Origin: Minisyncoccota bacterium
GTDB taxonomy: Bacteria; Patescibacteriota; Minisyncoccia; Phycocordibacterales; SBAW01
Direction of reading: 5' to 3'
NCBI GenBank assembly: GCA_035546615.1
Contig: DASZWM010000003.1
Location: 1 to 64,000 of the forward strand
DNA: 64,000 nt
Part shown: piece by piece, positions 53,194-63,222 of the stretch
Layout of the letters: every line of letters begins with the position of its first letter
Numbering within the stretch: position 1 is the first letter of the stretch
Notes under the pieces: model-generated
Seen by the model: the letters and a program-made list of their open reading frames with translations, nothing else
What the model was told of the DNA's origin: nothing
Databases searched by the model: none
Position numbers and translations under genes: made by a program

Positions 53194-53242
53194 AGGCTCC
53201 TATTATACATATCCGGTACTTTCGAAACTAGAAGCCTGGCTC

Positions 53243-53524
53243 TTATTTTAGCTTTTTGCAAAAAGCTAAAATACTTTCGGCGCGGGGCGTGAGGGTATGG
53301 CGTACGTTCATCCCGTCGCTGCGCTTGTAGAGGAGCCCGGCGATAGCCATCTTGCGCAGATGGTCGGAAGCGTTCATATATCCCATCCCCAGCTTTTCCG
53401 CTATCCCCTCGATCGAGAGGCCCGGGGTCTGCTTGAGCAGATCCAATACCTGAAGGCGCCTATAGCTGGCAAAGCCTTTCACTATCCGCTCAAGCCGGCG
53501 ATATTCGCCCTGGTCTTTCGGCAT
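53243..53524 (-). CDS. ArsR/SmtB family transcriptional regulator
   Basis: 'YRRLQVLDLLKQTPGLSIEGIAEKLGMGYMNASDHLRKMAIAGLL' winged HTH. Start taken at MPKDQ. Confidence 0.75.
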   Translation of the reverse strand: MPKDQGEYRRLERIVKGFASYRRLQVLDLLKQTPGLSIEGIAEKLGMGYMNASDHLRKMAIAGLLYKRSDGMNVRHTLTPRAESILAFCKKLK

Positions 53525-53548
53525 GGCGAAGACTATATACGGTGTTTT

Positions 53549-53625
53549 ACGTTTTTGCAAAAAGCTTTGATAAAAGGGCGGGGCGGGCGGGAACGAAAGG
53601 CTTTATCACGGCTTTTTGCAAAAAG
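53549..53625. promoter_or_regulatory. two GCTTTTTGCAAAAAGC palindromes upstream of arsR (candidate operators); third copy at 53249-53268
   Basis: 'CGTTTTTGCAAAAAGC' at 53549-53564 and 'GCTTTTTGCAAAAAGC' at 53610-53625. A perfect 20-bp copy 'TAGCTTTTTGCAAAAAGCTA' lies at the arsR 3' end. Confidence 0.45.
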
Positions 53626-53647
53626 CTAAAATAAAAGAAATACATAA

Positions 53648-53672
53648 GGGAGGGAGGGAGGGAGGGAGGGAG
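53648..53672 (+). repeat. (GGGA)6 simple-sequence tract / G-quadruplex-forming motif
   Basis: 'GGGAGGGAGGGAGGGAGGGAGGGAG' lies in the intergenic region between arsR and the YgjP-like gene. Confidence 0.8.
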
Positions 53673-53694
53673 CCTTTACCTTTTTGCTTTTATT

Positions 53695-54105
53695 TTATCT
53701 GATGCGGATCCGGCGGAGGGCTTTGCGGGCTTTTTTGTAGTCCGGAATGGTCTCTTCGACCAGGGCCCAGAAGGCGGGGCTGTGGTTCATTTCCTTCAGG
53801 TGGCACAGCTCGTGGGTTACGACATATTCGGCCAGGCGCGGCGGCAAGAAAAGGAGGCGGTAGTTGAAGTTGAGGTTGCCGTGCTCCGAGCAGCTCCCCC
53901 ACCGCGAACGGCTGTTCTTTATGAATACCCGGCGCACGGCGTAGTCGTAGTGCGCGTTGAGGCGCGCGATGAGCGCATGGACAAGCGCGCGAGCCTCTTC
54001 CTTATACAGCTGGAACTTCCGCGAACTAGCCGCCGAAGCCGGGCGTCGTCTCCGTACCCGCCGCCGATATACGATTTTGTATCCAAACACCGAGGTATTG
54101 TACAA
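53695..54105 (-). CDS. YgjP/DUF45-family metal-dependent hydrolase (short)
   Basis: 'SRWGSCSEHGNLNFNYRLLFLPPRLAEYVVTHELCHLKEMNHSPAFWALVEETIPDYKKARKAL' carries an HExxH-like motif. Confidence 0.5.
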   Translation of the reverse strand: MYNTSVFGYKIVYRRRVRRRRPASAASSRKFQLYKEEARALVHALIARLNAHYDYAVRRVFIKNSRSRWGSCSEHGNLNFNYRLLFLPPRLAEYVVTHELCHLKEMNHSPAFWALVEETIPDYKKARKALRRIRIR

Positions 54106-54141
54106 CCTTACTTAATGGCAGGCTCAGATATAGATTTATAA

Positions 54142-54540
54142 CTACAAAATTGAGATAACTTTCTTAACGACGGAGTCTGAAGCACTCTTGAGTCGATGTT
54201 CCCATATTCTTAATACCTTCCAATTCATACTTTTTAATTGTTTATTAACCAATCTATCTCTTTTCTTATTTCTTTCTATTTTGTTAGTCCAATATGCGCG
54301 ATTTGTCTTTGGAACTCTACAGTGAGTCTTACATCCGTGCCAAAAACAAGAGTCAATGAAAATTGCTGTCTTAGAAACAGAAAAAACAATATCAGGTCTG
54401 CCTGGCAATTTTGCCACATGAGTTGTAAACTTTAGTTTACTTTTTTTCAGTTGCTTCTGAAAAGATTTTTCTATACCTGAATTTCTACTCTTAATGAGAC
54501 GCATTATTTCGCTGCGTCTTCCAGAAGATACATTGTCCAT
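54142..54540 (-). CDS. vsr: very-short-patch-repair endonuclease Vsr
   Basis: 'IVFSVSKTAIFIDSCFWHGC..PKTNRAYWTNKIERNKKRD' is the Vsr signature. Confidence 0.85.
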   Translation of the reverse strand: MDNVSSGRRSEIMRLIKSRNSGIEKSFQKQLKKSKLKFTTHVAKLPGRPDIVFSVSKTAIFIDSCFWHGCKTHCRVPKTNRAYWTNKIERNKKRDRLVNKQLKSMNWKVLRIWEHRLKSASDSVVKKVISIL

Positions 54541-54544
54541 GCCT

Positions 54545-55612
54545 TTATTCTTCTATATCCCAACCTGTTGGAAGTGTGATTTTGGTATAGGCTCTTTCTT
54601 TGATAAAAGGGACAATCTCTGCGCTCGAAGGAAACTCTGCGTCAAATTCTCTCGTTAAATCACTTAACAAAGTGCCAGCAAGTCGTTCTCTATATTCTTT
54701 ACTGAGGCAAAGAGTATACCAGTCATGCAAATCTTTAAGAGTAATTATTCCTTGCACACGCTCAATAATCCCGAGCTGTTGTAGCAGGGCCTCAATAGGT
54801 TTCTTTTCTGCGTCTCGACAAACAATTACAATCCTGTCCGCTTCGATTCCCTCGACAATTCCTTCGGTTACTTCAGGAGTAAGTGTAAGGTGTTTTACCT
54901 GGATAGCTGTTCCAAAATTTGCCCACATATCTAATCCCCTATCCGCCGCATTCGTTACGCCAACTCTAAAAAGGGCTGCGGGCATAGCTACTTGAGTCTT
55001 TCTGGCATCTATGCCTAAAACCATTTTTATAAAACCTTCAAAATCAGTAAGTATTTCTTTGTCTTCATTTTTAATCGAAAGGGTGATTTCCGCTTTTAAT
55101 GCTCGTACAATAGCGGAAAAAAGAGCATGCACTGCTATTTCATATATTTTATCTGTGCTTCGTCTCAAGCCAGGACTTGATGTAAAAAGTTCCACTAATT
55201 CCATTATGGAAAAAGTGTCCACTGTTGACTGTTCGATATAGTCTCTTACCCGATGAACAGATAGTAACTTATTTTGTAAAGCTTTATAAATATAAGCCTC
55301 TACTCCGCCCTTACTTGTTGTATTTATTTTTCCTAACACTGCCAATAGTTGGGGCGGCATAGCATTAGGCTCAAAGATATTATCTTGGTACTTTGCGCTA
55401 GAAGTACTGCTCCTCCCAACAAGTAAGGTGGAGACTTCATCTCTCCAACGTTTAGAGACAGAGCGATAACTTTCTAGATCAGTTAGTTCTAGCTTTTTCT
55501 TAGTTCTATGATAGAAAAGTATCTCCGCTATCTGTATAGGTTTATAGAAGTGCACTCTGGCCTTCTTTATAACTGAATCCAGAGCCGCTTTTGCTTCTTC
55601 AGCCATTGACAT
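54545..55612 (-). CDS. putative type II restriction endonuclease (partner of adjacent C5-MTase)
   Basis: 355 aa, AT-rich. It overlaps the methyltransferase gene by 14 bp and sits upstream of vsr. No family assignment possible by eye. Confidence 0.4.
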   Translation of the reverse strand: MSMAEEAKAALDSVIKKARVHFYKPIQIAEILFYHRTKKKLELTDLESYRSVSKRWRDEVSTLLVGRSSTSSAKYQDNIFEPNAMPPQLLAVLGKINTTSKGGVEAYIYKALQNKLLSVHRVRDYIEQSTVDTFSIMELVELFTSSPGLRRSTDKIYEIAVHALFSAIVRALKAEITLSIKNEDKEILTDFEGFIKMVLGIDARKTQVAMPAALFRVGVTNAADRGLDMWANFGTAIQVKHLTLTPEVTEGIVEGIEADRIVIVCRDAEKKPIEALLQQLGIIERVQGIITLKDLHDWYTLCLSKEYRERLAGTLLSDLTREFDAEFPSSAEIVPFIKERAYTKITLPTGWDIEE

Positions 55613-56621
55613 ACGCCCGTTCTACCATATTTATGTCTTTTCCGCTAAACAATTCAGTTTGTTCAATAAAAGGAACCGGGTCTTTCGACATTGCTTCAAC
55701 CATTGCGTGGGCCACTGCTTCCATCTGAGGAACCACTACAGCATTACCAGCTTGCTTCCGGATTTGCTGGTCAGCAACAACAAATTTATATGAATCGGGA
55801 AAACCCTGTAATCTAAACATCTCTCTAGGAGTCAGTCTTCTTTCTCCATTTACAATAAGATAGTTATATGAACCATTAGCCCTAAGAGCGCATGAATAAG
55901 CATTCACGCCTAGGTTTCCAGACTTATTTTCGTGCAAGATTAACGGACGAGAATGAAGTTCTTTGTGTTGTTCTTTTAATTGTCTCTGGACTTTCTGCAA
56001 CATATAATCGCTAAGAAAGTGTTTTTTATCGACCTCATTATCAGGCTCAAGGATGTCTTCAAGAGTTTTCTTTTTTCCCCTCCCTTTGGTAGGAAATTCA
56101 AAAGGGTAGTTTTCTCTAAAACCTACAATCATTATTCGCTCTCTCTTTTGCGGAACGCCAAAATCTAGACCATTTAAAACTTTAAAGTGCACAAAATAAC
56201 CTAGTTTTCTTAAACTATTTAGAATTACTGAAAACGTCCTTCCTTGATCATGATTGGTAAGTTGTTTTACATTTTCCAAAAATAGAGCTTTTGGTTTCTT
56301 TGCCTTTAGAATTCTCTCAACATCAAAAAACAACGTGCCTCTTGTTTCAGAGAAACCTTTCATATTCCCCATGATGCTAAAAGCTTGGCATGGAAAACCG
56401 CCTGTCAAAATATCATGGTCAGGCACATCTTTTGCAACTATTTTCGTTATATCTCCATCTGGCTGGTCGCCGAAATGATTCTTATACATCTTCTGCGCAG
56501 CTTCATCCCATTCTGATGTAAAAACACATTTACCTCCTGCCGCTTCAAAACCAAGTCTAATGCCTCCAATTCCTGCAAAGAGATCGATAAAAGTAAATTT
56601 ATTCTTATTCGTTGGAGCCAT
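55599..56621 (-). CDS. DNA (cytosine-5)-methyltransferase
   Basis: Motif I 'FIDLFAGIGGIRLGFE', motif IV 'GGFPCQAFS', motif VI 'ENVKQL'. C-terminal target-recognition region. Confidence 0.9.
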   Translation of the reverse strand: MAPTNKNKFTFIDLFAGIGGIRLGFEAAGGKCVFTSEWDEAAQKMYKNHFGDQPDGDITKIVAKDVPDHDILTGGFPCQAFSIMGNMKGFSETRGTLFFDVERILKAKKPKALFLENVKQLTNHDQGRTFSVILNSLRKLGYFVHFKVLNGLDFGVPQKRERIMIVGFRENYPFEFPTKGRGKKKTLEDILEPDNEVDKKHFLSDYMLQKVQRQLKEQHKELHSRPLILHENKSGNLGVNAYSCALRANGSYNYLIVNGERRLTPREMFRLQGFPDSYKFVVADQQIRKQAGNAVVVPQMEAVAHAMVEAMSKDPVPFIEQTELFSGKDINMVERAYVNG

Positions 56622-56690
56622 AGAGCAATATATTTTAACACCTATTTTAAGCTTGCTATATTTTTAATAATAGCACTGAAATCTATATTT

Positions 56691-56722
56691 ATACACAATA
56701 TACACAAGTCTTGGGGATAACT
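56691..56722. promoter_or_regulatory. second copy of the ATACACAA-tandem / TTGGGGATAAC element, upstream of the methyltransferase-RE-vsr operon
   Basis: 'ATACACAATATACACAAGTCTTGGGGATAAC', to compare with 49691-49722. Confidence 0.4.
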
Positions 56723-56851
56723 TTAGTGAGGGCCGTTTTTGGTCCAGGATAGCCGTATCCGCCAGCCGATAAAAATAGAGTAAGGGGGTAAAGATCAGCA
56801 ATCGTGGGATGAGCGTGTCTAATAGTCACCTAAGGATTTATAGCCATAAGG

Positions 56852-57193
56852 CTATTGTGGCAAACCCTTAATTTTGTTTCTGAAGAAATTAAATCGCATC
56901 TTAGCATAGTCCCAAAGAAAAGAGCAGAACGACTTATTTGGATGTCTTTTTATTTCACGCAAGTTCTCGAAAGCATAATTAAGTATATCTATAAATAATA
57001 ACCCTGGTACAACACCCAATGCGAATATATACCAATCAGAAAAACGTGTTTTTAACAAACTGTAAGTCGCATTTACTGCAATTCCAAGAACTACCGCAAG
57101 CGTCGCACCGAGTATCACAAATGCCCACTGTATTTGTAGACTTCTTTCCTCTTGTAAATCACCCTTGTTCATGGCGAATATATCTAATAACAA
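56852..57193 (-). CDS. 2-TM membrane protein (last gene of Ubl/E1 operon; candidate effector)
   Basis: '..IQWAFVILGATLAVVLGIAVNATY..WYIFALGVVPGLLFIDIL..'. AT-rich. Confidence 0.4.
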   Translation of the reverse strand: MLLDIFAMNKGDLQEERSLQIQWAFVILGATLAVVLGIAVNATYSLLKTRFSDWYIFALGVVPGLLFIDILNYAFENLREIKRHPNKSFCSFLWDYAKMRFNFFRNKIKGLPQ

Positions 57194-57201
57194 GTAAAAA
57201 A

Positions 57202-57618
57202 TTATTCGAAGAAGCTACGCAATTGGACTAATATCCAGTTTCCAAATCGTCGCCACCATGACAGGGAGGAATGAATAAAGTATGCATCCTTGATGGTATC
57301 GTCATATTCTCGCCCGTGGCGTATCTGTTCTCGAGTCATCTTCGACGCCCAAATCACTTGATTTTCAATAATCCAATAATGTGACTGACAAGGATGATTC
57401 CAGTTTCCTATTGAAGGACGTAGCGAGACCACCCCCTGCCAATCAACTAGCGTATATTCGGTCTTACGGAGAGGGGTAACGATTTTAGTGCCACAACTGC
57501 AACAGCACAAATGGCTCGCGGTTCCGAAACGTCGTGAGATATATAGAACACCACTCTCAAGCTCTCTTGGTATGAACTCAACATATTCAGGACGCACCAA
57601 CTCTGTCTTCATATACAA
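57202..57618 (-). CDS. Cys/His-rich 138-aa protein of unknown function (Ubl/E1 operon)
   Basis: 'ASHLCCCSCGTKIV', 'NHPCQSHYW'. No JAMM HxH motif. Overlaps the E1 gene by 10 bp. Confidence 0.4.
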   Translation of the reverse strand: MYMKTELVRPEYVEFIPRELESGVLYISRRFGTASHLCCCSCGTKIVTPLRKTEYTLVDWQGVVSLRPSIGNWNHPCQSHYWIIENQVIWASKMTREQIRHGREYDDTIKDAYFIHSSLSWWRRFGNWILVQLRSFFE

Positions 57619-58808
57619 TCCTCTTTTGTAAGGGCGTGGGTCGCAATCGTGTACAGCGAATGACGTTCTCGCACATCATCAGCATAAAAACCACACAATT
57701 GCTTCCATTTTCCCACAGCCATGGCAGCATTTAGCATATTTAGGTCCGCAACCTGCATATTACGGTACACCGCCTCGGCCGGCACTTTTGCAAATGAAAC
57801 AACTTCCGCAATATGTCCATGATGGTCGGGTGTTCCAACTGTAAAGCGACACTGTCCGCGCAGAGACGCCTGATTATCGAGTGCCAAGTCTATTCCAACG
57901 TCTATGAACGGCACACCAAGAGCAATAAGGCCATTAAGTATGTTCTTCCGGCTCTCTCCGTCGTCGATAGCAACAAACACGAAGTCGAACCCGGACAGCT
58001 CGTGGAGATGCGCGTCCTGGACATAGTAGGGATGACGCTTCAAGCCCTTGTGTATACGTTCGTATATACCACTGAACCAATCCACTTTTAGTGGATTGTT
58101 AAGCTCCTGCTTCATCGGAGCACCCGGTGCTCTAAACGCGTTGTGGAGTTCGAACGTATCCCCATCGAAAATGTGGATTTCTTTCACCGGCGTCTTAGCA
58201 ACAAGGTCGAGAATATACGAACCAGTACCACCTAGTCCTATAATCGCCACCCGACTTGCAAGGAGTTTCGCCGTGGCCGCTCCAATACCAGCACGGGTTG
58301 TTGCCATATCAGGATAATGGAATGCGAGTTCCTGAGCTTCGACTACCGCCGGTACTGGTTTTTCACTTCGTGGATCGCAAGTCCGATCAATTGCTTGAGC
58401 TTCGTGCCAAATCAGACGAACATATGTCCAGATTTTTTCGTAGTAGTCGGCATACTTGCGCTTATCAGCGTGCACACGCGAGAAGGCGACAGTCGTCTTA
58501 ATCCCATCGCCCTTATCCTCCTCAGCGTTGTTCGAAATCATCTCCGTCATTAGTTGACCATCCGCGTTGTGCGGGGGTTCTCCAATCCACCAACACTGAT
58601 GGTTGGAACATGGATTCACTGTCTTTCCGGCCGCATCAATTTCAAGTGGGCAATAGAGAATTCCAGGCACTATTTTGCCTTCAGAGGTAACAGCAGGAAT
58701 TCCCTCAATTAAAAGATGAGAGGCAGTCCCTTGAATGACCCGGAGACGAAAACCTTCCGCCTCCAACTTTGCCAAATCGGCATTATGACTTATCCGTATT
58801 TCTGACAT
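57609..58808 (-). CDS. E1-like (ThiF/MoeB family) adenylyltransferase with ~170-aa N-terminal extra domain (possible E2-like)
   Basis: Rossmann 'VAIIGLGGTGSYILDLVAKTPVKEIHIFDGDTFELHNAFR', a C-terminal Cys/His region 'GTPDHHGH', and an N-terminal Cys-containing domain of unknown fold. Confidence 0.65.
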   Translation of the reverse strand: MSEIRISHNADLAKLEAEGFRLRVIQGTASHLLIEGIPAVTSEGKIVPGILYCPLEIDAAGKTVNPCSNHQCWWIGEPPHNADGQLMTEMISNNAEEDKGDGIKTTVAFSRVHADKRKYADYYEKIWTYVRLIWHEAQAIDRTCDPRSEKPVPAVVEAQELAFHYPDMATTRAGIGAATAKLLASRVAIIGLGGTGSYILDLVAKTPVKEIHIFDGDTFELHNAFRAPGAPMKQELNNPLKVDWFSGIYERIHKGLKRHPYYVQDAHLHELSGFDFVFVAIDDGESRKNILNGLIALGVPFIDVGIDLALDNQASLRGQCRFTVGTPDHHGHIAEVVSFAKVPAEAVYRNMQVADLNMLNAAMAVGKWKQLCGFYADDVRERHSLYTIATHALTKEDCI

Positions 58809-59040
58809 CGAAGTTCATATGATCGACCACATCTACACTTTGGCCCCGGCGAAGCGATCCTTCGTGTCCACCTGGCTTAGTCCATGAAACGCTGTAGCGA
58901 ACATCGCCTCCGAACGGACCAGTTGGGAATGCGAGCTTGATGACTTGCTCGTAGCTAATATCGTGTTCACCCCACTTCTCTTGAATACCGTTCACAACAA
59001 TGCTTATGGTGTGTCCATGCCCTTTATTATCGTCTGCCAT
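58783..59040 (-). CDS. ubiquitin-like beta-grasp protein (multiubiquitin-domain-like), first gene of operon
   Basis: An 85-aa protein with 'HTISIVVNGIQEKWGEHDISYEQVIKLAF..YSVSWTKPGGHEGSLRRGQSVDVVDHMNFDV'. It is translationally coupled to the E1 gene. There is no C-terminal GG. Confidence 0.4.
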   Translation of the reverse strand: MADDNKGHGHTISIVVNGIQEKWGEHDISYEQVIKLAFPTGPFGGDVRYSVSWTKPGGHEGSLRRGQSVDVVDHMNFDVRNTDKS

Positions 59041-59224
59041 ATAATTTTAATTGTCGGCTTTTTAATTTAAGTGCGGCACCGGTCGACCGCACTTGTATCG
59101 TACACCCATTTCTGATACCCTTGCAAGGTAACTAGATGTATCAAATGTTACCTAAAGTACCATATTTGTTATATCTGATACCTGTTGTTACAACCTATAA
59201 CAAGTTACGCACAGATTTCAAATC

Positions 59225-59584
59225 ATGAGAAAATCATCCGCTACAATAAACAATGAAAGCAGATCCACAGAGCTTGAAATCCGGAAAGAGATTGGCAGAC
59301 GTATCGCTGAAATGCGTAGCAAACTGGGGCTTACAGCTCGCCTTGTTGCCAAAGAACTTCATGTCTCACGCGAAGCCATTACTCACATTGAAACAGGGCG
59401 AAACAATATATCTGCCGTATCGCTGTGGGAATTGGCGACTCTCTTCCATTGTGATATTGCTGATTTTTTCCCTGATATTCCTAATGGATATTCTTTAACT
59501 AGGGTCGATATTAATAAAGTAGCACAAATGAGTGGAAAGACAGGGGCGGCATGGGCTGAAAAGATTTTTGGGAAAAAGAAATAA
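59225..59584 (+). CDS. XRE-family HTH transcriptional regulator
   Basis: 'IGRRIAEMRSKLGLTARLVAKELHVSREAITHIETGRNNISAVSLWELATLF'. Confidence 0.8.
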   Translation: MRKSSATINNESRSTELEIRKEIGRRIAEMRSKLGLTARLVAKELHVSREAITHIETGRNNISAVSLWELATLFHCDIADFFPDIPNGYSLTRVDINKVAQMSGKTGAAWAEKIFGKKK

Positions 59585-59588
59585 ATAT

Positions 59589-60083
59589 ATGATGTCAGAA
59601 AGAATTGAGAAAAAAGCGGAGGAAGTCTTAAGCGCACTGAATGTTAAGTCAATACCTATCTCTGTTGAAGAAATCGCGAATCAATTAAAGATCAAGATAG
59701 GAAGAGCACCTAGTAGTGAATTTTCTGGAATGTTGATTCGAAAAGATGGTCGAGCACTTATGGGTATAAATAACAGTGAAGGCACTGCGAGACAACGATT
59801 CACTATTGCGCATGAACTTGGGCATTATTTCTTACATCCACAAAATGATACTTTTGTAGACTATAGGCAGAACGAAAAAGAACCAAGAAATCATAGAGAA
59901 CGAGAGGCTGATATGTTTGCAGCAGCACTCTTAATGCCTAGGAAAGAAGTAACAAAAGACTTTCAGAAAATTGTTAGGAAAGGATTTTCAGAAATTGAAC
60001 TTCACAAACTGGCAGGAAAATATGAAGTGAGCGACAAAGCAATGAGATTTAGGTTAGTAAACTTAAATATGCTATTAGGTTAA
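59589..60083 (+). CDS. ImmA/IrrE-family zinc metallopeptidase
   Basis: 'FTIAHELGHYFLH' (HExxH) and 'EREADMFAAALLMP' downstream. Starts 5 nt after the XRE stop. Confidence 0.8.
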   Translation: MMSERIEKKAEEVLSALNVKSIPISVEEIANQLKIKIGRAPSSEFSGMLIRKDGRALMGINNSEGTARQRFTIAHELGHYFLHPQNDTFVDYRQNEKEPRNHREREADMFAAALLMPRKEVTKDFQKIVRKGFSEIELHKLAGKYEVSDKAMRFRLVNLNMLLG

Positions 60084-60087
60084 GATT

Positions 60088-60348
60088 TTATTGTCTACTC
60101 CCTTGTGATCCTAATCTATCCGTAAAAGGTCCCTCACGATGGGCCGCCGGATCTACATCCTTTTTTGTAATAACCTGGGGAAAGCGGGTATTTTCTTCAA
60201 TCTGCTCTAGTAACGTGACTATTCTGTTCAATTTCCAGTACCAGGTAAGGATTTCCCTGATCAGGAGGAATATCAGAGCGCCCACGCATAGGACAAAAAC
60301 GATATTTGGTAGCTGGGACCAGTAATATTGAAATAAGGGTTGAAGCAT
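60088..60348 (-). CDS. small TM protein, hypothetical (downstream of AbrB-like gene)
   Basis: 'WSQLPNIVFVLCVGALIFLLIREILTWYW' is a single TM segment. Confidence 0.3.
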   Translation of the reverse strand: MLQPLFQYYWSQLPNIVFVLCVGALIFLLIREILTWYWKLNRIVTLLEQIEENTRFPQVITKKDVDPAAHREGPFTDRLGSQGSRQ

Positions 60349-60351
60349 ATA

Positions 60352-60540
60352 TTACTTCTTCCAGTCGCGGATTATCAGCTTCTTTCTCTTCAGATCCACC
60401 TCTACGGTGAGCTTTTGGCGCTCTTTCCACTTGAACTTGCGGATAGCCTCCACCGGAAGCGCGACCGTATAGGTACTTCCCCGCCCCGTCTTGGTGAGCT
60501 TGCGGACCTGCTTTTTCTGCCCCGCCTTCGGCCGTGCCAT
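60352..60540 (-). CDS. AbrB/MazE/SpoVT-like DNA-binding protein
   Basis: 62 aa with 'KLTKTGRGSTYTVALPVEAIRKFKWKERQKLTVEV', a swapped-hairpin-like pattern. A 36-bp palindrome lies just upstream. Confidence 0.45.
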   Translation of the reverse strand: MARPKAGQKKQVRKLTKTGRGSTYTVALPVEAIRKFKWKERQKLTVEVDLKRKKLIIRDWKK

Positions 60541-60642
60541 GCGGATATGATACCACCGAACTCCTGAGCTAACTCAAGAGTTAGCTCAGGAGTTAATTAA
60601 AAACCGGCGCCTGGGGCGCCGGTTTGGCCAAGGTTGGCCGGA

Positions 60643-60918
60643 TTACTGAAGCGTGGGGCTGGAGCGGGTCTCGCTTATAGCCCAGTTGCCGTACAGGGTA
60701 TCGAGCTCGAGCTTGAGCTGCACGACCCGCTCGACCATCCCGACGTCTACGACGCGGAGATTAATCATAAAGGCCTCGGCATTGCGTATCGCCGCTTTGA
60801 TCTCCTTCTTCTTCGCGATGATCTCGGGCGGGAGCCGCCGCTTCCCGCTGTGGAAATCTCCGGCAAGCCGGATCATTGTCCGCGCCTCGTCGGGAGTAAG
60901 TACCCGATACTGATCCAA
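60643..60918 (-). CDS. hypothetical protein
   Basis: 91-aa ORF with no recognisable motif. Confidence 0.3.
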   Translation of the reverse strand: MDQYRVLTPDEARTMIRLAGDFHSGKRRLPPEIIAKKKEIKAAIRNAEAFMINLRVVDVGMVERVVQLKLELDTLYGNWAISETRSSPTLQ

Positions 60919-61039
60919 AGCCTCTCTCCTGTCTTATAAGCGGCCACCCGCTTTCGGGTACGATACTAGCATCGAAAAAAGAAATAAAACAGGCCCGCGG
61001 CTTGCGCCGCGGGCCTCTTGTCTGCCTAACTCCGTGGAG

Positions 61040-61465
61040 TTAGGACCTCTTCCCTGCCGGCTCCATGTAGAAGATCCAGAACTCCAGCGACGAATTGCCG
61101 ACATCCACCATCCAGCCGTGGGCGTACTCGTCGCCGTTATTCACCACGCCGTAGTCGATGTTTACTTTCCCGACCTGGACCGGACCGACCTGGTTGAGGC
61201 CGCAGCGGGGATAGCCGCGAGCGTCGACCTCCTGGTGATACACGGTGTATAGCGCCGTGCTTTCGGCCGGATCCCGATAGCGGGCGTCCAGGAGGGTCTT
61301 CAGATCTTCCTGAGATTTGCACCACAGGACCGGCTGGCGGAACCAACCGTAAAATTCCTCGCCCGGCGGCTGCGCCGAGACGGGAGCTACGAGGCACGCC
61401 ATGCACGCGAGAGCAATCAAAGAACGGTTGAACATCTTGGACCTCGTTGGTTGGTCCTTGGACAT
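61040..61465 (-). CDS. secreted hypothetical protein
   Basis: Signal peptide 'MFNRSLIALACMACLVAPVSAQ'. Confidence 0.4.
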   Translation of the reverse strand: MSKDQPTRSKMFNRSLIALACMACLVAPVSAQPPGEEFYGWFRQPVLWCKSQEDLKTLLDARYRDPAESTALYTVYHQEVDARGYPRCGLNQVGPVQVGKVNIDYGVVNNGDEYAHGWMVDVGNSSLEFWIFYMEPAGKRS

Positions 61466-61589
61466 CCTCTCTGCCTACACCTTTTTTCGTCCTTGGGAGG
61501 ACATACCGATTGTATGACGTCTTGTGCCGATGGCAAATAGTCCGCGCTTTTGCTAGAGTACTGGCTGGCACGAACAACAGGAGACGCGG

Positions 61590-61961
61590 ATGATCAATTG
61601 CCTTATGGTCCGGGGCACCGGCATCACGAACAGCATGTCGAGCCTTCTCTACCGGACCGCCATGCAGATGGTGCAGGAAAAGAAAAGCTCGAAGAAGTTC
61701 AAGGGCGGCGACTGCCAGGGCGTCCTTTCGACAGAATGGAAGTACGCCGGCATGGGCACGATATCGGGCCTGCAGTTCAGCGCGAAGGTGGAGAGCGCGG
61801 CGGGTACGACCGAGGTTACGTTCATCATCCGCTCGCTGGACCTGGACGAACCGGATGACGACTCGTGGGAAGCGGTACCCGACCAGGAGACGTTCGACCG
61901 CTACGCGGTTGCGGACGCGCTCGAAGAGCGGGACGCGATTCCCAGATCCAGGCTCAACTGA
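61590..61961 (+). CDS. hypothetical protein
   Basis: 123-aa ORF followed by terminator 'AAAAAGCCCCGCGCGCCCCACGGCGCGCGGGGCTTTCTG' at ~61979-62017. Confidence 0.35.
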   Translation: MINCLMVRGTGITNSMSSLLYRTAMQMVQEKKSSKKFKGGDCQGVLSTEWKYAGMGTISGLQFSAKVESAAGTTEVTFIIRSLDLDEPDDDSWEAVPDQETFDRYAVADALEERDAIPRSRLN

Positions 61962-62072
61962 TGCGGATTGCTCCCGCCGAAAAAGCCCCGCGCGCCCCAC
62001 GGCGCGCGGGGCTTTCTGCATGGCAAACGGCCCGCGCTTTTGCTACAGTACGGGCGGATAGAAACTTGAGGA

Positions 62073-62666
62073 GTGCAGCTGATGACACTAAAGAAGATGC
62101 AGATACTGCTTCCCAGGGGCTTTGTCGATCCGACGGGCCCCGGGATGAAAGACGTGCCGCTCTTCTTTTTGGGCGGGCCGGTGCGCGGCGGCGGAGACTG
62201 GCAGTCGAGAATGGCAATCATGCTGGCCGAGATGGTAGATGGCGACTGCCTGATAGCTATCCCTGCGCGGTGGAACGGAGACCATTGCCTGGCGCATCGC
62301 GTTACACCGACGGACAGGAAGTCAGACTTTCCGCGCCAGCTCAACTGGGAGCGATACTACCTGAACCATGCGGGATTCCATCCGCGCCCGGGATGCGTCG
62401 TTTTCTGGCTCGCAGTCCAGCGGGAATCCCGGCCGGCCGAAGACGGGCCGTACGCCCAGGACACCTACGGGGAGGTTGGCGAGTGGCGAGGGCGCATGAT
62501 GTACAACCCGTCGATACGCTTCGTCGCGGGAGCGGAAGCGACGTTCCCCGGCCTGGATGTCATCCAGCGCAACTTCAATATGGCGCTTAACCGCGAGTTC
62601 CCGATCTATAAGACGATGGAGGAAACCGCGGCGGCGGCCGTGAAAGCGGCGCTGGCGCAAGCGTAA
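62073..62666 (+). CDS. hypothetical protein (possible nucleoside deoxyribosyltransferase-like fold)
   Basis: 'VPLFFLGGPVRGGGDWQ' resembles the Rossmann-like start of Ndt-like proteins. This is a weak call. Confidence 0.3.
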   Translation: MQLMTLKKMQILLPRGFVDPTGPGMKDVPLFFLGGPVRGGGDWQSRMAIMLAEMVDGDCLIAIPARWNGDHCLAHRVTPTDRKSDFPRQLNWERYYLNHAGFHPRPGCVVFWLAVQRESRPAEDGPYAQDTYGEVGEWRGRMMYNPSIRFVAGAEATFPGLDVIQRNFNMALNREFPIYKTMEETAAAAVKAALAQA

Positions 62667-62676
62667 GGAGGAAACG

Positions 62677-62865
62677 ATGGAACAATGGATGGCGTACCTG
62701 CAAGAGCAAGAGGCGCAGGCCAAAGCGATGGTCGAGAACGCCGTTCCTGCGAACTGGGAAGATTTCCTGCTCCAGAATAAGCTTCTTATCGCGGCGGCGA
62801 TGTTTGCCGTAGCCTGGTTCCTACTGATGCCTGACTGGCTGAAGGACTGGTTCCGCGGGAAATAG
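62677..62865 (+). CDS. small membrane protein, hypothetical
   Basis: 'LLIAAAMFAVAWFLLMPDWL' TM segment. Followed by terminator 'AAATCGCCGCGGGCTTCCCAGCCCGCGGCGTTCTTTG'. Confidence 0.3.
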   Translation: MEQWMAYLQEQEAQAKAMVENAVPANWEDFLLQNKLLIAAAMFAVAWFLLMPDWLKDWFRGK

Positions 62866-63222
62866 CGCTGTAGAAAAGGAAATCGCCGCGGGCTTCCCAG
62901 CCCGCGGCGTTCTTTGTTTATTTAGTGCACCGTGCCGACGAGCGACTGCGCGAAATGGAGCACGAGCTCAAGCATCGAAATGAGGAAATTTATGAACAGC
63001 GTGAGCAGGCTGAGCAGGAAGCCCAGGATGAGATCAAGGATATGCGTTATGAAATCCATGGAACCAGTATACACCGCTCTTTTCCCTATATCAGGAATGA
63101 GTTTTGCAAAAATCGATGAGATGCAAGGCGCGGGCGAGGCTCGGACCGAGCAATAGGCCGCCTATTGTGAGGGAGACCCGCAGCCCGCAACGCGGCAGGT
63201 CGCGATTTTTGCGAAACGCAAG

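What the first reader, a model, noticed from the sequence alone, without database searches (positions are those of the whole stretch)
54110..60640. Low-GC horizontally acquired island: Vsr + restriction enzyme + C5-MTase cassette adjacent to the Ubl/E1 system, bounded by a 36-bp palindrome/terminator
Base composition drops visibly from about 54.1 kb to about 60.6 kb relative to the GC-rich flanks. The island contains vsr (54142..54540), a 355-aa candidate restriction endonuclease (54545..55612) and a cytosine-5 methyltransferase (55599..56621), with overlapping genes as in an operon. Next come the Ubl/E1 operon, the XRE/ImmA pair and an AbrB-like plus small-TM gene pair. The right edge carries a perfect 36-bp palindrome (60559..60594) and a GC hairpin (60599..60626). 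A Vsr beside a Dcm-like MTase is the classic arrangement that repairs T:G mismatches created by 5mC deamination. The clustering of R-M with a second defence module suggests a defence island.
Basis: partly seen in the sequence, partly recalled or inferred. Interest (0 to 1): 0.5.

Follow-up and report, generated by a model that had tools for sequence, protein, structure and literature searches.

The report
Swappable low-GC defence island
A 6.5-kb stretch of foreign, AT-rich DNA in a GC-rich Candidatus Paceibacterota genome carries two known defence modules, a HaeII-type restriction-modification system with a Vsr repair nuclease and a ubiquitin-like "Bub" operon with its stress-sensing regulators. 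It sits at a spot where a related genome carries a different restriction system, so it is a real but fairly ordinary defence island.

Summary
GC falls from 0.595 to 0.416 across 54104-60597, and GC3 falls from about 0.78 to 0.29-0.48.

A related contig (L093, flanks about 85% nt identical) shares both flanks but holds a different low-GC cargo between the same two breakpoints: a fragmented type I R-M. The locus is therefore a variable defence hotspot, and no empty site was found.

Contents:
- An M→R→V operon: an HhaI-like C5-MTase, a HaeII-family REase and Vsr. The same three-gene cassette recurs in other candidate-phyla-radiation (CPR) bacteria.
- A canonical Type II Bub operon (bubA, bubBD, bubE), divergent from a CapH/CapP-like XRE/ImmA pair.
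- Two orphan membrane genes.
- An AbrB/MazE-like gene preceded by a 17+2+17 palindrome.

The GC hairpin is the host terminator and lies just outside the island. No integrase, tRNA or direct repeats are present.

Composition is mosaic, which points to several sources or successive insertions.

Every module belongs to a known family, so this is a new member of a known kind. Interest is modest. The points worth noting are Bub in a CPR genome and a cargo-swapping hotspot in CPR.

The parts
54104..60597 (.). Variable low-GC island (6,494 bp) between conserved host flanks
   Evidence: blastn and MAFFT breakpoints against the related contig L093. GC is 0.416 against 0.595.
53695..54090 (-). Host flank: YgjP-like/DUF45 metallopeptidase. 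The likely true start is the conserved GTG at 54090. The island begins 13 nt upstream of it.
   Evidence: PF01863 E=6.7e-39. 90% aa identity to L093, whose ORF starts at GTG with MFGYRIVY. Alignment A2.
54142..54540 (-). vsr, a very-short-patch T:G mismatch endonuclease. Third gene of the M-R-V operon.
   Evidence: PF03852 E=6.6e-18. TIGR00632 at 118.7 bits (cut-off 97.85). PADLOC Vsr E=1.5e-22.
54545..55612 (-). HaeII-family type II restriction endonuclease (predicted site RGCGC^Y)
   Evidence: PF09554 E=3.7e-127 over 338/338 profile positions. An NCBI source names the identical protein 'HaeII family restriction endonuclease'.
55599..56621 (-). Cytosine-5 DNA methyltransferase. First gene of the operon; overlaps the REase gene by 14 nt.
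   Evidence: PF00145 E=8e-98. TIGR00675 at 343.6 bits. The best solved relative is M.HhaI, E=1.7e-78, with motifs I, IV (PCQ) and VI aligned. The target-recognition region aligns poorly.
56622..56851 (.). AT-rich spacer upstream of the MTase gene. Presumed promoter region of the M-R-V operon (inferred).
   Evidence: Sequence read. No minus-strand promoter match in the simple scan, which found only plus-strand consensus matches here.
56852..57193 (-). Orphan gene for a protein with two predicted membrane helices (113 aa from the TTG start, or 106 aa from the ATG at 57172). It lies 8-29 nt downstream of bubE.
   Evidence: ORF. Called as 106 aa in the Logan assembly. Hydropathy. No Pfam, PADLOC, NCBIfam or PHROG match. 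Absent downstream of bubE in L082, L083 and L105.
57202..57612 (-). bubE (DUF6527), the putative Ser-His deconjugating protease with a Cys4 zinc site
   Evidence: PF20137 E=1.8e-18. C38-x-C40-x-C42, C77, S69 and H80 seen in the sequence. Their spacing resembles Citrobacter C57/C59/C61/C99, S92 and H102 in 10.1101/2024.11.21.623953.
57609..58808 (-). bubBD, an E2-E1 fusion (DUF6791 + ThiF adenylation domain)
   Evidence: PF20590 E=1.1e-30 plus PF00899 E=7.8e-14. NF004804 at 422 bits (cut-off 340). S110, R226 and Y348 are (near-)invariant in 111 sequences. The only PDB matches are Citrobacter BubCD, 9EA4 and others.
58783..59040 (-). bubA, a single beta-grasp ubiquitin-like protein
   Evidence: PF14452 E=4.1e-12. 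The C-terminus ...FDVRNTDKS is shared with BubA of L082, L083 and a Bradyrhizobium plasmid.
59041..59224 (.). Divergent control region between bubA and the capH-like gene. Contains repeated GTAAC/GTTAC and ATxTCTGATACC motifs, which are candidate operators (inferred).
59225..59584 (+). CapH-like XRE-family HTH repressor
   Evidence: PF01381 E=4.2e-10. PADLOC capH E=3.5e-5.
59589..60083 (+). CapP-like ImmA/IrrE (M78) metallopeptidase. The ATG start is as called in the Logan assembly; a GTG at 59532 is also open.
   Evidence: PF06114 E=4.3e-23. PADLOC capP E=4.8e-38. Gene call.
60088..60348 (-). Orphan gene for an 86-aa protein with one predicted membrane helix. It starts 3 nt after the AbrB-like gene.
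   Evidence: No family match. GC3 is 0.45.
60352..60540 (-). AbrB/MazE/SpoVT-like 62-aa DNA-binding protein with host-like composition (GC3 0.78)
   Evidence: No direct Pfam hit. However, 62 of 71 homologues match PF04014. The profile's best PDB hits are AbrB and antidote proteins, E about 0.03. The AF2 model is beta-beta-alpha-beta-beta, pLDDT 73.5. The top Foldseek hits are MazE, AbrB and SpoVT.
60559..60594 (.). Inverted repeat of 17-nt perfect arms with a 2-nt spacer, 18 nt upstream of the AbrB-like ATG. It is the outermost element of the island. Candidate operator or insulator (inferred).
   Evidence: I10. Unique in the window. Forms a 16-bp hairpin in the fold, z=-8.6 for the 111-nt region. 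Absent from L093.
60599..60626 (-). Host flank: GC-rich hairpin plus U-tract, the intrinsic terminator of the upstream host gene
   Evidence: The stem is conserved in L093 while the loop differs. Fold.
60643..60918 (-). Host flank: conserved 91-aa protein of unknown function
   Evidence: 74% identical in L093 and 60% in L094.

Best explanation
Window 54104-60597 is a horizontally acquired, composite defence island. It sits in the intergenic spacer between a host terminator and the start of a YgjP-like gene, in a GC-rich Candidatus Paceibacterota (CPR) chromosome. This spacer is a hotspot whose cargo differs between related genomes.

Module 1, the M→R→V operon (inferred mechanism). The C5-MTase methylates the GCGC-core site, predicted to be RGCGCY. 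The HaeII-family nuclease cuts unmethylated copies in incoming DNA. Vsr nicks next to the T of T:G mismatches left by 5-methylcytosine deamination, so that short-patch repair restores C. That would matter in a host with about one RGCGCY per 285 bp.

Module 2, a Type II Bub operon. By analogy with the published E. coli and Citrobacter systems, the steps are:
- BubBD adenylates the BubA C-terminus.
- BubA passes through a Tyr348 oxyester to a Ser110 oxyester.
- BubA is conjugated to target proteins.
- BubE removes the conjugates.
The divergent CapH-like repressor and CapP-like protease would keep the operon off until DNA damage or infection triggers CapP to cleave CapH.

Remaining genes. These are two orphan membrane proteins and an AbrB/MazE-like regulator with a candidate operator palindrome. 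Their function is unassigned.

What is shown and what is inferred. Shown here: gene content, family membership, composition, breakpoints and the alternative cargo in a relative. Inferred: enzymatic specificities, the regulatory logic, and the route of acquisition. The likely route is recombination in the conserved flanks after DNA uptake, because no integrase or repeats are present.
For: - Composition: GC 0.416 against 0.595, GC3 0.29-0.48 against 0.65-0.84, and tetranucleotide distance two to three times that of any other bin.
- Hotspot: L093 shares the flanks (DUF218 86%, 91-aa protein 74%, YgjP-like 90%, PHA_gran_rgn 93%, lipoprotein 88% aa; about 85% nt). Between breakpoints equivalent to 54103 and 60598 it holds about 7.1 kb of different low-GC DNA. 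That DNA encodes fragmented HsdR, HsdM and HsdS.
- Foreign affinities: BubBD is 70-72% identical to Bradyrhizobium proteins and 81% to a protein in a 61%-GC contig. The M-R-V cassette is 68-69% nt identical over 2.4 kb to cassettes in Kaiserbacteria and another contig, in the same gene order.
- Family assignments.
- Bub residues.
- Same five-gene Bub plus HTH/ImmA layout on an annotated Bradyrhizobium plasmid. The paper 10.1101/2024.11.21.623953 reports this association for 31% of Bub operons.
- Target load: 202 RGCGCY and 868 GCGC sites in 57.7 kb of host DNA, with no avoidance (obs/exp 1.06).
- Assembly: a separate assembly of SRA run SRR12170516 (Logan contig L081) is 100% identical to 53761-60628 and spans both junctions.
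Against: - No empty site was found, so insertion as opposed to replacement is not directly seen.
- Only one informative relative exists.
- No integrase, transposase, tRNA or flanking direct repeat marks a mechanism.
- The AbrB-like gene at the right edge has host-like GC3 (0.78). It may be an old resident of the locus rather than part of the import.
- The MTase target-recognition region aligns poorly with M.HhaI, so specificity is not established.
- Anti-phage activity has not been shown for any Bub operon (paper).
- L081 covers only 31 bp beyond the right junction.
Confidence: 0.85

Rival explanations
1. The island is the decayed remnant of one integrative mobile element (an ICE/IME, prophage or integrated plasmid). 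It entered in a single site-specific event and later lost its integrase and attachment repeats.
For: - The block is compact and all of it is cargo-like.
- The closest M-R-V cassette lies on a contig with a RepL/HTH_36-type gene (L084).
- One close Bub homologue lies next to a serine recombinase (L083).
- A strong palindrome sits exactly at one edge.
Against: - No recombinase, phage structural gene or replication gene is in the island.
- There are no direct repeats at the ends and no tRNA nearby.
- GC3 falls into at least three classes: R-M about 0.30, Bub about 0.46, AbrB-like 0.78. The Bub and CapH/CapP parts also have different closest relatives (BubBD 81% but CapH/CapP only 24-35% to the same locus). 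This argues for assembly from several sources.
- The relative has an unrelated cargo with no shared end sequences.
- There is no near match in plasmid or phage collections.
Confidence: 0.1
2. The low-GC block is an assembly or binning chimera that joins DNA of a different organism into a Paceibacterota contig.
For: - The source is a metagenome-assembled genome.
- Composition changes abruptly at both ends.
- The Logan contig ends only 31 bp beyond the right junction.
Against: - A second assembler produced an identical sequence across both junctions.
- Both flanks continue for tens of kilobases with host composition.
- A related contig has the same two flanks, also separated by low-GC cargo, with breakpoints at the same nucleotides.
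- The GC-rich AbrB-like gene and the terminator bridge the right edge.
Confidence: 0.03
3. The block is native and vertically inherited. Its composition is atypical because of the proteins it encodes.
For: Lys/Glu-rich or membrane proteins can lower local GC. The first 600 bp of the window are also at GC 0.41-0.43.
Against: - The difference is largest at third codon positions (0.30 against 0.78), which amino-acid content does not explain.
- The block is absent from the related contig.
- The nearest relatives of its proteins are in other lineages.
Confidence: 0.02

Closest known systems
HaeII-family type II restriction-modification systems with a linked Vsr, seen here as M-R-V cassettes in Candidatus Kaiserbacteria and other CPR contigs (L084-L088)
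   Same: - Same three genes in the same order, with the same overlaps.
- M is 74-76% identical, R 73-75% and V 59-60%, with 68-69% nt identity over 2.4 kb.
- The REase matches PF09554 over its full length.
   Different: - The genomic site differs.
- GC3 is lower (0.30 against 0.44-0.56).
- The recognition sequence and the methylated base were not determined here.
[quoted passage not shown]
   Same: - bubA, bubBD (E2-E1 fusion) and bubE, with no JAB peptidase.
- Conserved Ser, Arg and Tyr at positions close to S106, R219 and Y342.
- A CapH/CapP-type regulator pair, as in 31% of Bub operons.
- Identical layout on a Bradyrhizobium plasmid.
   Different: - The host is a CPR bacterium.
- BubA has one beta-grasp domain (85 aa), whereas E. 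coli BubA has three.
- BubA ends in ...NTDKS with no C-terminal glycine, like its close homologues.
- An extra two-helix membrane gene follows bubE.
- The residue mapping to the E. coli protein rests on position and invariance, not on a direct alignment.
CapH/CapP DNA-damage-responsive regulators of CBASS and other defence systems
   Same: - An XRE HTH gene followed by an ImmA/IrrE M78 peptidase gene.
- Divergent from the regulated operon.
- PADLOC capP E=4.8e-38 and capH E=3.5e-5.
   Different: - Only 24-35% identical to the regulator pairs beside the closest Bub operons.
- The capH match is weak.
- Cleavage and induction are untested.
Defence islands and integration hotspots, where variable cargo lies between conserved core genes (general knowledge from pan-genome studies of Proteobacteria)
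   Same: The flanks are conserved, two related genomes carry different R-M-bearing cargo at identical breakpoints, and the cargo has atypical composition.
   Different: - Seen here in Patescibacteria, with only two alleles sampled.
- No mobility genes are present.
- No empty allele was found.

Membership tests
Type II R-M, HaeII family | REase homologous to HaeII over its full length | tested here: met
   PF09554 E=3.7e-127, profile positions 1-338 of 338. PADLOC REase_II E=9.5e-115.
Type II R-M, HaeII family | Adjacent cognate C5-MTase with the catalytic motifs | tested here: met
   PF00145 E=8e-98. TIGR00675 at 343.6 bits. Motifs FxGxG, PCQ and ENV align to M.HhaI. The gene overlaps the REase gene by 14 nt.
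Type II R-M, HaeII family | Recognition of RGCGCY and methylation that protects it | not testable with these tools
   REBASE and methylome data were not available. The MTase target-recognition region aligns poorly to M.HhaI. The host shows no site avoidance (obs/exp 1.06), which is uninformative.
Vsr mismatch endonuclease | Match to the Vsr family model above its curated threshold | tested here: met
   TIGR00632 at 118.7 bits against a cut-off of 97.85. PF03852 at 64.8 bits against 27.
Vsr mismatch endonuclease | Nicking of T:G mismatches in the sequence context of the partner MTase | not testable with these tools
   Inferred only from linkage. The M-R-V order is conserved in five other loci.
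Type II Bub operon | Three-gene set: Ubl (BubA), E2-E1 fusion (BubBD) and DUF6527 (BubE), with no JAB peptidase | tested here: met
   PF14452; PF20590 plus PF00899; PF20137. The genes are co-directional and overlapping. There is no JAB domain in the island.
Type II Bub operon | Invariant E2 serine, adenylation arginine and crossover-loop tyrosine, in place of catalytic cysteines | tested here: met
   S110 is present in 110 of 111 sequences, and R226 and Y348 in 111 of 111. R226 aligns to the adenylation-site Arg of Citrobacter BubCD. Equivalence to E. coli S106, R219 and Y342 is inferred from position.
Type II Bub operon | BubE Cys4 zinc site and Ser-His dyad | tested here: inconclusive
   C38/C40/C42/C77, S69 and H80 are present and conserved in three sequences. 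The spacing differs by one residue from Citrobacter. No alignment to the characterised protein was possible.
Type II Bub operon | ATP-dependent conjugation of BubA to proteins | not testable with these tools
   Biochemical. Shown only for the E. coli and Citrobacter systems in 10.1101/2024.11.21.623953.
CapH/CapP regulator pair | XRE HTH gene followed by an M78 (ImmA/IrrE) peptidase gene, divergent from the controlled operon | tested here: met
   PF01381 and PF06114. PADLOC capP E=4.8e-38 and capH E=3.5e-5. Layout.
CapH/CapP regulator pair | Damage-triggered cleavage of the repressor by the peptidase | not testable with these tools
   Inference from the family only.
Horizontally acquired genomic island | Composition deviates from the genome, including at synonymous sites | tested here: met
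Horizontally acquired genomic island | Block absent at the same locus in a related genome | tested here: met
   L093 has the same flanks and a different cargo. This rests on one relative only.
Integrative mobile element (ICE/IME, prophage, transposon) | Recombinase or transposase gene, flanking direct or inverted repeats, or a tRNA target | tested here: not met
   No such Pfam, PHROG or PADLOC hits. No terminal repeats. The nearest tRNA is at 32.9 kb.
AbrB/MazE/SpoVT swapped-hairpin DNA binders | Sequence or fold match to the family | tested here: inconclusive
   The window protein itself has no Pfam hit. However, 62 of 71 homologues match PF04014. The profile against PDB gives E about 0.03. 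The model is beta-beta-alpha-beta-beta, and the top Foldseek hits are MazE and AbrB at weak E-values.
Type II toxin-antitoxin pair | A recognisable toxin encoded next to the AbrB/MazE antitoxin | tested here: not met
   The downstream 86-aa membrane protein matches no family. Conservation of the pairing could not be examined.

The most novel reading that the evidence does not exclude
The two-helix membrane gene lying 8-29 nt downstream of bubE (56852-57193) may be a fourth, operon-encoded Bub component in this CPR variant: a membrane effector or target. The whole island might then act as one damage-sensing unit. Self-restriction or 5mC-related DNA damage would be sensed by CapP, which would switch on Bub. 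If so, it would offer a handle on the still unknown biological role of Bub.
Probability: 0.08. Interest if true: 0.55.

Novelty: new member of a known kind. Interest (0 to 1): 0.3.

Why it matters
The result shows that a CPR (Patescibacteria) chromosome has a defined intergenic hotspot where defence cargo is exchanged between close relatives without any visible recombinase. It also places a Type II Bub operon in a CPR genome; that operon was described in 2024 and its function is still unknown. Its E2-E1 protein is 70-81% identical to proteins found elsewhere, including in Alphaproteobacteria, which indicates wide horizontal spread. The HaeII-type M-R-V cassette appears to circulate as a unit among CPR lineages. 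None of this changes current concepts. It is a clean, well-delimited example that is useful for annotation and for choosing Bub or R-M systems to test.

Tried and rejected
Searches for related genomes:
- A GTDB species-representative scan with the YgjP-like flank protein returned 80 loci. The best was 55% identical and none had the right-flank genes, so it gave no usable synteny.
- A JGI metagenome scan with the 197-aa right-flank protein found only 28-45% relatives and no synteny.
- Exact-sequence look-ups of flank proteins found nothing.

Ideas considered and dropped:
- Insertion might have truncated the YgjP-like gene. This was rejected because L001 and L093 homologues cover the whole protein, and the conserved GTG start lies in the shared flank.
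- I first placed the right edge at about 60350, because the AbrB-like gene has host-like GC3. I revised it to about 60597 from the L093 alignment.
- I looked for target-site duplications, terminal repeats, tRNAs and recombinases. None were found.
- I tested for RGCGCY avoidance in the host. There is none (obs/exp 1.06).

Other negative searches:
- The palindrome arm has no second copy in the window or in the fetched loci other than L081, which is the same sequence. Its 10 single hits in IMG/VR are about the number I estimate by chance for a 17-mer, and none is palindromic.
- Plasmid, phage and E. coli DNA searches and a viral scan with the REase gave no close match.
- Rfam gave nothing above threshold.
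- L084 shows no terminal overlap that would indicate a circular element.
- L094, a more distant relative of the 91-aa flank gene, was too short and divergent to inform.

Full report
**1. Observation**

The compositional drop is real, sharp and unique in the window.
- In 2-kb bins, GC is 0.395-0.442 for 54-60 kb and 0.536-0.647 everywhere else.
- Across 54106-60600 GC is 0.416, against 0.595 for the rest.
- 500-bp windows outside the island average 0.596 (sd 0.042) and never fall below 0.42. That minimum is reached only at the first bases of the window. Windows inside average 0.415.
- Tetranucleotide distance to the window background is 0.55-0.72 for the three island bins and 0.17-0.32 for the other 29.
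- The contrast is strongest at synonymous positions. GC3 is 0.29-0.48 for ten island genes and 0.65-0.84 for fifteen flanking genes. Amino-acid content therefore cannot explain it.

**2. Gene content**

On the minus strand, in order of transcription:
- C5-MTase at 56621-55599: PF00145 E=8e-98; TIGR00675.
- REase at 55612-54545: RE_HaeII PF09554 E=3.7e-127, full length.
- Vsr at 54540-54142: TIGR00632 at 118.7 bits against a cut-off of 97.85.
- The M and R genes overlap by 14 nt, and R and V are 4 nt apart.

Further right, also on the minus strand:
- bubA at 59040-58783 (Multi_ubiq).
- bubBD at 58808-57609 (DUF6791 + ThiF; NCBIfam NF004804 at 422 bits against a cut-off of 340).
- bubE at 57612-57202 (DUF6527).
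- An orphan two-helix membrane gene at 57193-56852.

Divergent, on the plus strand:
- An XRE HTH gene at 59225-59584.
- An ImmA/IrrE M78 peptidase gene at 59589-60083. PADLOC scores it as capP (E=4.8e-38) and the HTH weakly as capH (E=3.5e-5).

Last, on the minus strand:
- A 62-aa gene at 60540-60352.
- An 86-aa single-helix membrane gene at 60348-60088.

**3. Source and a second assembly**

NCBI names the identical REase and E1 proteins as coming from a 'MAG TPA: Candidatus Paceibacterota bacterium' contig of 156,901 bp. A Logan assembly of SRA run SRR12170516 contains a 6,868-bp contig that is 100% identical to window 53761-60628 and spans both island edges.

**4. Is it absent from relatives?**

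The first attempts failed.
- A scan of GTDB species representatives with the left-flank protein found only distant relatives (55% at best) with no synteny.
- A metagenome scan with a right-flank protein likewise failed.

A protein search with the 91-aa host gene next to the right edge then found a 74% identical homologue on NCBI contig JBBCBH010014321.1 (GCA_037975565.1; L093).
- L093 shares both flanks: DUF218 86%, the 91-aa protein 74%, YgjP-like 90%, PHA_gran_rgn 93% and the lipoprotein 88% aa identity, with about 85% nt identity.
- Nucleotide homology runs through the host gene's 3' end and its terminator hairpin and stops at window ~60597/60598. It resumes at window 54103, which is 13 nt upstream of a conserved GTG that is the likely true start of the YgjP-like gene.
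- Between these points L093 carries about 7.1 kb of different DNA, also low in GC (0.40-0.52). This DNA encodes pieces of a type I R-M system (HSDR_N, Helicase_C and EcoEI_R_C fragments; N6_Mtase in three pieces; Methylase_S) plus a UPF0489 protein.

The island is therefore 54104-60597. The locus is a variable hotspot whose cargo is R-M-type in both genomes. An empty site was not found.

**5. Edges**

- The GC hairpin at 60599-60626 has a conserved stem in L093. On the minus strand it is followed by a U-tract, so it is the host terminator and lies outside the island.
- The palindrome at 60559-60594 consists of two perfect 17-nt arms around AA. It is unique in the window and absent from L093.
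- It is the first element inside the island and lies 18 nt upstream of the AbrB-like ATG.
- I read it as a candidate operator or insulator. That is an inference.
- There are no terminal direct or inverted repeats, no tRNA nearer than 32.9 kb, and no recombinase.

**6. Mosaic make-up**

GC3 falls into classes:

| Part | GC3 |
|---|---|
| M-R-V | 0.30-0.31 |
| 113-aa membrane gene | 0.34 |
| bub genes | 0.45-0.48 |
| capH/capP-like pair | 0.29-0.35 |
| 86-aa membrane gene | 0.45 |
| AbrB-like gene | 0.78 (host-like) |

The parts also have different closest relatives.
- The M-R-V cassette has 68-69% nt identity over 2.4 kb to cassettes with the same order and overlaps in Candidatus Kaiserbacteria contigs and in a contig carrying a RepL/HTH_36-type gene. 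Protein identities are M 74-76%, R 73-75% and V 59-60%.
- BubBD is 81% and 78% identical to proteins in two contigs of about 61% GC. One lies beside an Abi_C gene and the other beside a serine recombinase. BubBD is also 70-72% identical to Bradyrhizobium proteins.
- The regulator pairs beside those Bub operons are only 24-35% identical to the window's pair.
- The membrane gene after bubE is missing from all three comparison loci.

The island therefore looks assembled from several sources, or by successive insertions at one hotspot.

**7. The Bub module**

The operon fits the Type II Bub architecture described in bioRxiv 10.1101/2024.11.21.623953. That architecture is a Ubl, an E2-E1 fusion and a DUF6527 protease, with no JAB peptidase, and it is frequently paired with CapH+CapP (31% of 544 operons).
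- In an alignment of 111 sequences, S110 is present in 110, and R226 and Y348 in all. These lie close to the published E. coli residues S106, R219 and Y342.
- The only PDB matches are Citrobacter BubCD structures, and R226 aligns to their adenylation arginine.
- BubE has the CxCxC...C cluster and a Ser/His pair at similar spacing.
- An annotated Bradyrhizobium plasmid has the identical five-gene layout.
- BubA ends in ...FDVRNTDKS, as do its homologues, and has no C-terminal glycine.
- The paper reports that no Bub operon has yet been shown to protect against phage, so 'defence' is an inference from context.

**8. The R-M module**

- The MTase's best solved relative is M.HhaI (GCGC), E=1.7e-78. 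The catalytic motifs align well, but the target-recognition region aligns poorly. RGCGCY specificity therefore rests on the REase family alone.
- The host part of the window has 202 RGCGCY and 868 GCGC sites in 57.7 kb, with no avoidance (obs/exp 1.06). The island has one RGCGCY.
- Such a dense target load makes loss of the MTase hazardous. If all sites are methylated, it also creates many deamination-prone 5mC positions, which gives a rationale for the linked Vsr. This is an inference from established Dcm/Vsr biology.

**9. The AbrB-like call**

- The 62-aa protein has no direct Pfam hit.
- It belongs to a family of about 60-aa proteins, and 62 of 71 members match PF04014, MazE/SpoVT-AbrB.
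- A family profile finds AbrB and antidote structures at E about 0.03.
- An AlphaFold model (pLDDT 73.5) is beta-beta-alpha-beta-beta, and its top Foldseek matches are MazE, AbrB and SpoVT at weak E-values.
- The call is reasonable but not firm. The downstream membrane protein matches nothing.

**10. Verdict**

The block is a horizontally acquired, composite defence island at a cargo-swapping hotspot, built from known families. Its novelty is limited to its host (CPR), its combination of modules and the documented hotspot. Its route of acquisition and enzymatic specificities remain inferred.

Noticed in passing
window 53213-53692: An ArsR/MarR-like HTH gene (53243-53560, minus strand; GC3 0.65) is bracketed by three copies of a roughly 30-bp palindromic repeat centred on GCTTTTTGCAAAAAGC (53244-53273, 53545-53574, 53608-53637). 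This 480-bp segment has no blastn or tblastn counterpart in the related contig L093, although the genes on either side do.
   Followed up: partly
window 60975-62902 vs L093 8395-9943: A second non-homologous stretch separates the same two genomes. The window has four genes of host-like GC with no Pfam match (141, 123, 197 and 62 aa). L093 has different small genes there. So the neighbourhood varies beyond the low-GC island.
   Followed up: partly
window 58783-59040; L082 9760-10026; L083 2234-2497; L105 5419-5874: BubA proteins of this Type II Bub clade all end in ...FDVRNTDKS and have no glycine near the C-terminus. The characterised Type I BubA is activated at a C-terminal Gly.
   Followed up: partly
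window 53650-53672: A short GGGA tandem run (gagggagggagggagggagggag) lies just downstream of the YgjP-like gene's stop codon.
   Followed up: no
window 1-600: The first ~600 bp are also low in GC (0.41-0.43). They encode the C-terminal part of a Lys/Glu-rich protein whose ORF runs off the window start. This could be amino-acid bias or the edge of another foreign segment.
   Followed up: partly
L093 11692-16600: The type I R-M genes in the relative's cargo are broken into several ORFs (hsdR in at least three pieces, hsdM in three, hsdS in two). This suggests either decay of the system or frameshift errors in that assembly.
   Followed up: no
window 57609-58808 (BubBD residues 70-74): An HQCWW motif (H70, Q71, C72, W73, W74) is invariant in all 111 aligned BubBD sequences. 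C72 is thus a fully conserved cysteine in the E2-like domain of a pathway described as cysteine-independent.
   Followed up: no
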